Source: an uncultured Elusimicrobium sp.
GTDB lineage: Bacteria; Elusimicrobiota; Elusimicrobia; Elusimicrobiales; Elusimicrobiaceae
Reading direction: 5' to 3'
DNA: 47,063 bases
Assembly: GCA_947170005.1 (NCBI GenBank)
Contig: CAMVRX010000001.1
Coordinates: forward strand, 1-47,063
A program made the position numbers and the translations under genes. Positions within the stretch are counted from its first letter, which is position 1. Each line of letters opens with the position of its first letter. Of this stretch, positions 34,264 through 34,755 are shown piece after piece. Below the pieces are notes generated by a model that saw only the letters and a program-made list of their open reading frames with translations, did not search any database and was not told where the DNA came from.

Positions 34264-34755
34264 ATGACAAAAAGCAACACCCGGCGGGGTTTCACGCAGC
34301 TAGTTGTTCTTCCCAAAGGCTTTACTTTAATTGAGCTCTTGGTGGTAGTGCTGATTATCGGCATTTTGGCGGCGGTGGCAATACCACAATACCAAAAGGC
34401 GGTAGCCAAAAGCAGGTTTACCGAGGCGTTTGTAAACCTAAAATATCTGGCCCAAAGGACCCAAGTGTATAAGTTGGAACACGGGGAAAACCCTGAAGGC
34501 CAGCTATTTTGGGATGAGGTAAGAGACAGCGACAACTTTTTTTATAATGCGGGAGATGGTAATGGTAATAACTATGTACTAGCATCAGTCGGTTACAAAA
34601 AAGAAGAAGTGTGTATTTGCTATACCAAAGACCAAACATTTGTACTTTACCAAGACAGAGAAAATTCTAATTGTGCCCAAAACCCGGCCTCTTACGATTA
34701 TGCACAATTATTAAATATCCCGGAGGTGGATGAAGATACGTGTATGTGTTGTTAA
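34264..34755 (+). CDS. Type IV pilin-like protein 5 (CxCC C-terminus)
   Basis: [20 protein letters not shown]; ends CMCC. Confidence 0.92.

What the first reader, a model, noticed from the sequence alone, without database searches (positions are those of the whole stretch)
34279..34297. Invariant 19-bp site ACCCGGCGGGGTTTYACGC at the prepilin cleavage codons of seven pilins
The site occurs at 2938, 12791, 24580, 30291, 34279, 38802 and 43636 with synonymous positions fixed (ACC CGG CGG GGT TTY ACG), whereas neighbouring conserved residues use varied codons. All three in-frame leader insertions (pilins 2, 5 and 6) begin immediately after it. Inference: a DNA-level crossover or capture site joining a leader module to an incoming pilin body, or an RNA element near the start codon. 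No recombinase gene is present in this window.
Basis: partly seen in the sequence, partly recalled or inferred. Interest (0 to 1): 0.72.

Follow-up and report, generated by a model that had tools for sequence, protein, structure and literature searches.

The report
Tiny mRNA pseudoknot after pilin start
In rumen and gut Elusimicrobiaceae, dozens of surface-filament (pilin) genes carry the same 19-base stretch just after the start codon, whose natural variants change in matched pairs as a predicted tiny RNA knot would, so it likely tunes how ribosomes start these genes rather than serving as a DNA cut-and-swap site.

Summary
The 19-mer is real at all seven places and constrained beyond the protein. 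It marks 42 of 149 pilin genes in this genome and pilins of 11 other genomes, nearly always 15 nt after ATG. It stays there when the true G|F cleavage site moves up to ~80 codons downstream. Variants show why: all six pairs of an H-type pseudoknot (CCC/GGG stem; loop GCG pairing with downstream CGC) have compensatory double changes (14 vs 3.5 expected, distinct patterns). Positions 11-14 are free, so it is not an invariant 19-mer. It begins at +16, the first base outside the 30S footprint. Best reading: a translation-start element resembling E. coli translation-activating stem-loops; the function is inferred. The crossover reading is weakly supported: shared tracts mostly run through the site and end in the conserved helix codons, and no dedicated recombinase was found, though pilin genes are rearrangement hot spots. 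Carriers nearly always sit behind an undescribed ~210-nt attenuator-like leader RNA (no Rfam match; genus-wide) whose arm ends in varying palindromic hexamers, like a dimerisation kissing loop.

The parts
34279..34297 (+). Site (predicted H-type pseudoknot) of pilin 5: stem 1 = 34280-82 with 34287-89; stem 2 = 34284-86 with 34295-97; AUG+16..+34
2938..2956 (-). Site, pilin 1 (direct type, overlaps cleavage codons)
12791..12809 (-). Site, pilin 2 (extended leader peptide)
24580..24598 (+). Site, pilin 3 (direct)
30291..30309 (-). Site, pilin 4 (direct)
38802..38820 (+). Site, pilin 6 (extended)
43636..43654 (-). Site, pilin 7 (direct)
34264..34755 (+). Pilin 5 ORF, 163 aa; true G|FTLIELL cleavage codon at 34318
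2459..2971 (-). Pilin 1 ORF, 170 aa
12243..12824 (-). Pilin 2 ORF, 193 aa; cleavage codon 12729-12731
24565..25098 (+). Pilin 3 ORF, 177 aa
29815..30324 (-). Pilin 4 ORF, 169 aa
38787..39326 (+). Pilin 6 ORF, 179 aa; cleavage codon 38838
43187..43669 (-). Pilin 7 ORF, 160 aa
34005..34208 (+). Structured 5' leader RNA of pilin 5 (predicted terminator 34154-34208; arm loop TTCGAA)
3027..3236 (-). Leader RNA, pilin 1
12858..13078 (-). Leader RNA, pilin 2
24324..24530 (+). Leader RNA, pilin 3
30372..30580 (-). Leader RNA, pilin 4
38552..38743 (+). Leader RNA, pilin 6
43703..43922 (-). Leader RNA, pilin 7
12758..12779 (-). GTAG-type REP, read in frame in the cleaved leader peptide of pilin 2; the same repeat flanks the genome's RAYT transposase (L140)

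Best explanation
The site is a conserved 19-base element that starts 16 bases from the pilin start codon and whose variants co-vary as a predicted 3+3 base-pair H-type RNA pseudoknot, which likely folds just outside the initiating ribosome and holds it on the start codon to raise or gate translation of this pilin subfamily. Shown: sequence, position, codon constraint, paired changes, near-constant link to the upstream leader RNA, retention when the cleavage site moves away. Inferred: that it folds in the mRNA in vivo; that it acts at initiation like the E. coli fepA/bamA translation-activating stem-loops; that the invariant A15 and near-invariant G4 make tertiary or protein contacts that stabilise so small a knot. 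Extensions start right after it because its 3' strand (CGC) is the last base block under selection and the cleaved leader peptide beyond it tolerates insertions such as REPs (inferred). Its identity between copies also makes it one of several homology blocks for ordinary gene conversion (inferred).
For: Covariation over 245 ATG-anchored sites: the three best of 105 position pairs are predicted pairs, 7:16 (11 compensatory vs 0.83 joint changes expected), 3:8 (6 vs 0.44), 2:9 (3 vs 0.11); 1:10, 5:18, 6:17 have one each. 21 of 35 multi-change sites carry a compensatory pair; counting each distinct change pattern once, 14 vs null mean 3.5, stem 1 7 vs 1.7, stem 2 7 vs 1.7, P<=5e-5 by column shuffling. 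Tool check on 77 rows: 6 of 6 pairs change on both sides, 16 cells vs 2.6 shuffled, 93.9% paired vs 15-58% with slid partners. Several compensatory changes alter the peptide (R to W, R to Q, T to M, G to S), so protein is not the constraint. In 22 extended pilins Phe survives in 13 but CGG in 21, 21 and ACG in 21, while the real cleavage codons use mixed Gly and Thr codons. Spacing from ATG is 15 nt in 91 and 18 nt in 7 of 101 sites with an ATG, while SD-ATG spacing spreads over 5-13 nt. The free 30S footprint in E. coli is -15..+15 and structures just downstream of it promote 30S binding (bioRxiv 10.1101/2025.04.04.647229, passages; PMC12421378 passages). All six pairs at +16 occur in 38 of 688 long RBS-ATG frames of the genome, none outside this pilin class. 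103 of 107 site-bearing pilins scored have the leader.
Against: No expression or structure data: the one RNA run was too shallow. Stem 1 alone is weak and no better than shuffles (-5.2 kcal/mol, z -0.44) and loop 3 (4-5 nt) is shorter than in luteoviral knots. G.U wobbles (24) are not favoured over A.C mismatches (26), so the strand and RNA-versus-ssDNA question rests on loop geometry and AUG spacing only. Copies are related and exchange sequence, so P values overstate; most variant loci were fetched because they differed from the consensus by <=3 bases. These genes already have strong SD motifs, and 84 leader-bearing pilins scored lack the site. E. coli TASLs are recalled to be position- rather than sequence-dependent, unlike this element. 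Fixed spacing may partly be ancestry.
Confidence: 0.55

Rival explanations
1. The same RNA pseudoknot is an operator: a clade-specific RNA-binding protein or small RNA binds it and represses or traps the initiating ribosome, switching the subfamily as a group (like the S15 or S4 ribosomal-protein operators, recalled).
For: Near-invariant sequence including unpaired G4 (240 of 245) and A15 (245 of 245); clade-limited, 4 of 37 genomes of the genus at <=1 mismatch; a marginal fold would need a partner.
Against: No partner identified; NusG is single-copy in 4 of 5 genomes tested and missing from the incomplete G000; no conserved cis partner in the cassette.
Confidence: 0.2
2. A DNA crossover or capture site, possibly folded as single-stranded DNA and cut by an HUH enzyme such as the RAYT, joins 5' modules to pilin bodies.
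For: Syntenic blocks between G000 and G031 end at pilin genes; 4 of 17 pilins with both flanks mapped join one pilin's upstream flank to another's downstream flank. One conversion patch begins between site positions 5 and 9; three tracts among three genes of one contig start within 15 nt of the site; one of 67 exact tracts starts at it; in run X3 four contigs leave the sequence at 43636 into an extension-like sequence (table 7; paralogs or a strain variant, not resolved). A RAYT and 50 REPs exist. Wobbles do not fix the strand.
Against: In the 26 recent tracts listed, 5 cross the site fully and 9 end 80-115 nt into the mature-pilin codons. In the G063/G031 transferred cassette leader and body stayed linked. 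Strain contigs cross sites 34279 and 38802; none of the 15 of 53 joints shown lies in a site. Pilins lacking the site are extended and carry REPs as well (38 of 47 vs 50 of 52). G008 has only 2 Xer-sized tyrosine recombinases, no serine recombinase; IS110 0 of 13 genomes. Fixed spacing to ATG is not needed for recombination.
Confidence: 0.12
3. The knot acts on transcription or decay: a polymerase pause signal that lets the first ribosome load, or a barrier to 5'-3' exonuclease.
For: It is almost confined to genes behind the attenuator-like leader; small knots can block exonucleases and scanning ribosomes (PMC10321173, start of abstract only).
Against: Neither role needs a 15-nt spacing to AUG; no RNA end data.
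Confidence: 0.1
4. A neutral relic of one ancestral gene start, homogenised by gene conversion.
For: Short-patch conversion is common; genome G007 shows its own homogenised cleavage-site codons.
Against: Codons on both sides are diverged while the element persists across genomes about 77% identical; compensatory changes require selection on pairing.
Confidence: 0.03

Closest known systems
Translation-activating stem-loops (TASL) of E. coli fepA and bamA (Jagodnik, Chiaruttini, Guillier 2017; seen as a reference and description in PMC12421378 and bioRxiv 10.1101/2025.04.04.647229, not read)
   Same: Small structure in the early coding sequence, immediately downstream of the 30S footprint, in mRNAs for cell-envelope proteins.
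   Different: Here a pseudoknot, near-invariant in sequence, repeated in tens of paralogous genes and paired with an upstream attenuator-like leader; activity untested.
Luteoviral frameshift pseudoknots (PLRV; PMC5416846 passages)
   Same: Very small H-type topology with a short first loop and an adenosine in the minor-groove loop.
   Different: Smaller (18-19 nt vs 26 nt), no slippery heptamer at a working distance, sits five codons into the gene.
Pilin recombination sites: IncI1 shufflon 19-bp sfx/Rci and Moraxella Piv inversion sites (recalled)
   Same: A short fixed sequence inside pilin coding DNA, 19 bp long.
   Different: No linked recombinase, dispersed single genes, free central bases, single-strand pairing covariation.
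Riboswitches and transcription attenuators (for the leader); HIV-1 DIS-type palindromic kissing loops (listing and abstract starts only)
   Same: Mutually exclusive terminator/antiterminator pairings; a long arm ending in a self-complementary hexamer.
   Different: No Rfam family matches; 26 different palindromic hexamers occur; ligand or partner unknown.
REP/RAYT system and Rickettsia-type coding palindromes (latter recalled)
   Same: GTAG REPs flank a RAYT (NF047646) and lie in frame in genes.
   Different: They collect in the cleaved prepilin leader, with or without the site; the site itself is not a REP.

Membership tests
H-type pseudoknot | Hairpin stem supported by compensatory changes | tested here: met
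   Pairs 1:10, 2:9, 3:8 all change on both sides
H-type pseudoknot | Loop bases pair with a downstream strand | tested here: met
   7:16 A-U in 11 of 245 sites; 5:18 and 6:17 once each
H-type pseudoknot | Both stems form together in the molecule | not testable with these tools
   Folding tools exclude pseudoknots; stem 1 only -5.2 kcal/mol
TASL (fepA/bamA type) | Structure begins just 3' of the 30S footprint | tested here: met
   Starts at +16 in 91 of 101; footprint -15..+15
TASL (fepA/bamA type) | Raises 30S binding and translation | not testable with these tools
   Needs toeprint or reporter
-1 frameshift stimulator | In-frame X XXY YYZ heptamer 5-9 nt upstream | tested here: not met
   Only 6 heptamers, all at spacer 0, among 101 sites
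Site-specific recombination site (sfx/Rci, Piv) | Dedicated recombinase in every carrier genome | tested here: not met
   G008 has 2 Xer-sized tyrosine recombinases only; no PF00239 match in G008 or G000; PF02371 0 of 13; draft genomes, so absence is not proven
Site-specific recombination site (sfx/Rci, Piv) | Breakpoints concentrate in the site | tested here: inconclusive
   Most tracts cross it; a few start at or in it; no long reads
REP / RAYT target | GTAG plus palindrome, or REP inserted at the site | tested here: not met
   Site lacks GTAG; REPs start about 12-30 nt downstream and occur without the site
Known Rfam cis-regulatory families (leader and site) | Match at gathering score | tested here: not met
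   Only two tRNAs in the window; no hit on three leaders or their sites at E<=5
Transcription attenuator / riboswitch (leader) | Alternative terminator and antiterminator pairings | tested here: met
   Predicted: 55 of 80 leaders fold antiterminator before, terminator after the last strand is made; 26 of 37 consensus pairs compensatory
Transcription attenuator / riboswitch (leader) | Known trigger that switches it | not testable with these tools
   GGDEF genes 2-4 per genome; no NusG paralog; RT in only 2 of 5 genomes
Type IV prepilin | G|FTLIE methylation motif | tested here: met
   PF07963 and TIGR02532

The most novel reading that the evidence does not exclude
Elusimicrobiaceae choose among about 150-200 dispersed pilin genes with a two-part RNA system: a leader whose palindromic loop lets transcripts with the same hexamer code dimerise and flip the terminator (an RNA-only way to switch subsets of genes on together), followed by a protein- or ribosome-read mini pseudoknot at +16 that licenses translation of one subfamily. 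That would be antigenic variation controlled by RNA self-recognition.
Probability: 0.2. Interest if true: 0.9.

Novelty: new variant of a known kind. Interest (0 to 1): 0.7.

Why it matters
It gives a covariation-supported, 18-19-nt natural pseudoknot in a coding region, at the exact edge of the initiating ribosome, with many natural variants to test what downstream structure does to bacterial initiation. It also exposes an undescribed, genus-wide leader RNA that precedes pilins and other surface genes, and so offers a testable route to how a 1.5-Mb gut bacterium manages well over a hundred pilin genes.

Tried and rejected
Frameshift signal: G GGU UUY lies inside the site but is lost in many extended pilins, and no heptamer precedes the knot at a working distance. 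Chi- or uptake-sequence role: sub-words are not over-represented outside pilins. Pairing of the site with the leader or elsewhere in the cassette: no conserved partner position. Retro-element spread: RT in 2 of 5 genomes, in G000 near a phage-type integrase. NusG-paralog antitermination: single NusG. RNA run X19: 19 contigs at depth about 2-7, uninformative. Simple promoter/terminator scan missed the long-loop leader terminator and the extended -10 promoter. Inter-species breakpoint mapping: all genome pairs are 74-82% identical, too far to place crossovers except in transferred cassettes. Earlier scan notes: nothing. Literature searches for this element or leader found nothing specific; the E. 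minutum genome paper is not held, so its supplements and text were not seen.

Full report
Observation. The pattern occurs at exactly the seven stated places and nowhere else in the window at up to three mismatches (chance mean 0.09). Each copy starts 15 nt after the ATG of a type IV prepilin. The genome G000 (1.07 Mb, 107 contigs, 73% complete) holds 149 G/A-FTLIE pilin motifs and 26 exact, 35 one-mismatch and 39 two-mismatch sites. An exact-pattern scan of GTDB genomes returned 107 stretches; of the 80 listed, 74 are Elusimicrobiaceae or Elusimicrobium MAGs (those naming a source are from rumen or faeces) and 6 are single hits in other or unnamed taxa. The family assignment of G000 is inferred from this. 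The site is in 4 of 37 genomes of the genus and 0 of 24 of other families, and in eight further genomes G061-G068; G069 gave only chance-like hits.

Constraint beyond protein. Picking genes by peptide, 41 of 42 use CGG CGG, against 15% CGG among Arg codons; codons 10-14 positions downstream are near saturation (that table's direct group includes one non-member). Half the class has an extended leader peptide, and there the site stays at ATG+15 while the true cleavage site moves 12-83 codons on. In these 22 genes Phe is kept in 13 only, but CGG (21 and 21) and ACG (21) persist. So bases 0-10 and 15-18 are selected as nucleotides, 12-14 only as Phe.

What the pattern is. That conservation fits an H-type pseudoknot: stem 1 = bases 1-3 with 8-10, loop G4, stem 2 = 5-7 with 16-18, loop 11-15. 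I collected 245 sites anchored on an RBS-ATG and a downstream pilin motif with <=4 changes (2 rows with 5 changes dropped) from G000 and fetched loci; exact copies were only partly fetched and variant loci were fetched on purpose. Among all 105 position pairs the top three for complementary double change are predicted pairs (7:16, 3:8, 2:9), and the other three have one case each. After removing duplicates, 21 of 35 multi-change sites carry a compensatory pair; with each change pattern counted once, 14 against a null mean of 3.5, each stem 7 against 1.7. The tool's own count on 77 rows agrees. Pair 0:11 is not kept. A15 is invariant. Against: 26 A.C mismatches versus 24 G.U wobbles, a weak stem 1, and relatedness among copies. 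On the opposite strand the loop lengths would be reversed, which is sterically unlikely (inference from general pseudoknot geometry). The 13 sites newly seen showed no change in the six pairs and so add no covariation.

Position. Spacing to ATG is 15 nt in 91 and 18 nt in 7 of 101 sites, 9 or 12 in 3 (nearest ATG taken), while SD spacing ranges 5-13 nt. The E. coli free-30S footprint is -15..+15, and structures just downstream promote 30S binding in fepA and bamA (passages of bioRxiv 10.1101/2025.04.04.647229; PMC12421378). The knot thus starts at the first free base. No slippery heptamer precedes it. The six-pair pattern at +16 is found in 38 of 688 long frames, all in this class. I therefore read it as a translation-start element; direction and partner are untested.

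The crossover idea. Pilin genes do bound syntenic blocks between G000 and 395 kb of G031: of 50 G031 pilins, 17 had both flanks next to G000 pilins, 11 at the same locus, 4 with upstream and downstream flanks from different pilins, 1 inverted in place, 1 joining two upstream flanks. At 12 shared loci the body was the best hit once, so contents turn over. But tract ends do not favour the site: of 67 exact paralog tracts one starts at it; of 26 recent tracts 5 cross it, 9 end 80-115 nt into the mature sequence, 3 (one gene trio) start within 15 nt of it. A cassette shared by G063 and G031, far more alike than the 78% background, keeps the same leader and body while the middle, from inside the site to the helix codons, is replaced: the site served as a homology edge, not as a leader-body joint. 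Strain contigs cross sites 34279 and 38802; replaced patches lie between leader blocks (30324-30553, 43707-43880) and in a body (43418-43530); only 15 of 53 joints were shown, none in a site; loose ends at 43636 in X3 remain ambiguous. No carrier-specific recombinase emerged. Extensions nearly all begin CAA, and repeats of three kinds lie further in, in 50 of 52 long site-bearing and 38 of 47 long site-free extensions; one kind is the REP flanking the genome's RAYT.

Context: the leader. 103 of 107 site-bearing pilins scored follow a ~210-nt leader, found before 85 pilins in G000 by a first motif count. An alignment of 72 copies gives 37 pairs, 26 compensatory. Its blocks allow an antiterminator or a U-tailed terminator; 55 of 80 fold the first before and the second after the last strand is made. 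The central arm's tip holds a palindromic hexamer in 210 of 287 copies (26 kinds; 46 expected on shuffling; 22 of 286 in the terminator arm), shared by genes with and without the site. No Rfam match. A model finds it in 26 of 27 genomes of the genus, 0 of 5 others; counts are lower bounds. In 20 top loci it precedes a pilin in 8 and otherwise secreted or membrane proteins and glycosyltransferases. A dimerising kissing loop is an inference from the palindromes only.

Comparison and novelty. It works most like a TASL but differs in being a sequence-conserved pseudoknot repeated across paralogs; it fails the tests for a frameshift stimulator, a REP and a dedicated recombination site. Searches (listings and abstract starts) and the scan's own notes showed no description of the site or the leader; subscription papers, including the E. 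minutum genome paper recalled to report about 60 pilE genes, were not searchable. Verdict: real, RNA-level, new variant of a known kind; interest 0.7, raised by the leader system around it.

Noticed in passing
window 34005-34208 and six other leaders; model R1: Undescribed ~210-nt attenuator-like leader RNA, genus-wide (26 of 27 genomes), before pilins, secreted or membrane proteins and glycosyltransferases; arm tip carries 26 different palindromic hexamers. Deserves its own study.
   Followed up: partly
G000 contigs C11, C21, C24, C34, C40, C45 and others: A second pilin class has TTGAC followed by a run of 11-12 T between the -35 and -10 boxes: 29 such promoters, 25 followed by a pilin; likely slipped-strand phase variation.
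   Followed up: partly
L140:656-758 and 1336-1437; window 12758-12779: RAYT transposase flanked by REP doublets; 50 REP copies genome-wide; three kinds of palindromic repeat are read in frame in cleaved prepilin leader peptides up to ~125 codons long.
   Followed up: partly
G000 pilins of the KR|GFT type: Gly codon GGG goes with Thr codon ACC (28 of 40 vs 19 of 72), which would form a GGG-UUUA-CCC hairpin near +20: a possible second start-proximal structure, or subfamily ancestry.
   Followed up: partly
L265 (G063:C80) vs G031:C22 47042-48100: A whole pilin cassette from promoter past the stop codon is over 90% identical (leader and body mostly higher) between genomes otherwise 78% alike and has a different upstream flank: recent horizontal transfer.
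   Followed up: partly
G007: Dozens of pilins share identical synonymous codons across the cleavage region, many at contig ends: a lineage-specific homogenised subfamily.
   Followed up: no
G000:C4 26471-33545 (L139, L142): Phage-type integrase, repressor-like gene and a reverse transcriptase within 5 kb; possibly a prophage with a diversity-generating retroelement.
   Followed up: no
window 44518-45111, 45328-47031: An eighth pilin without site or leader, beside an amidase, in a low-GC (33-41%) stretch.
   Followed up: no
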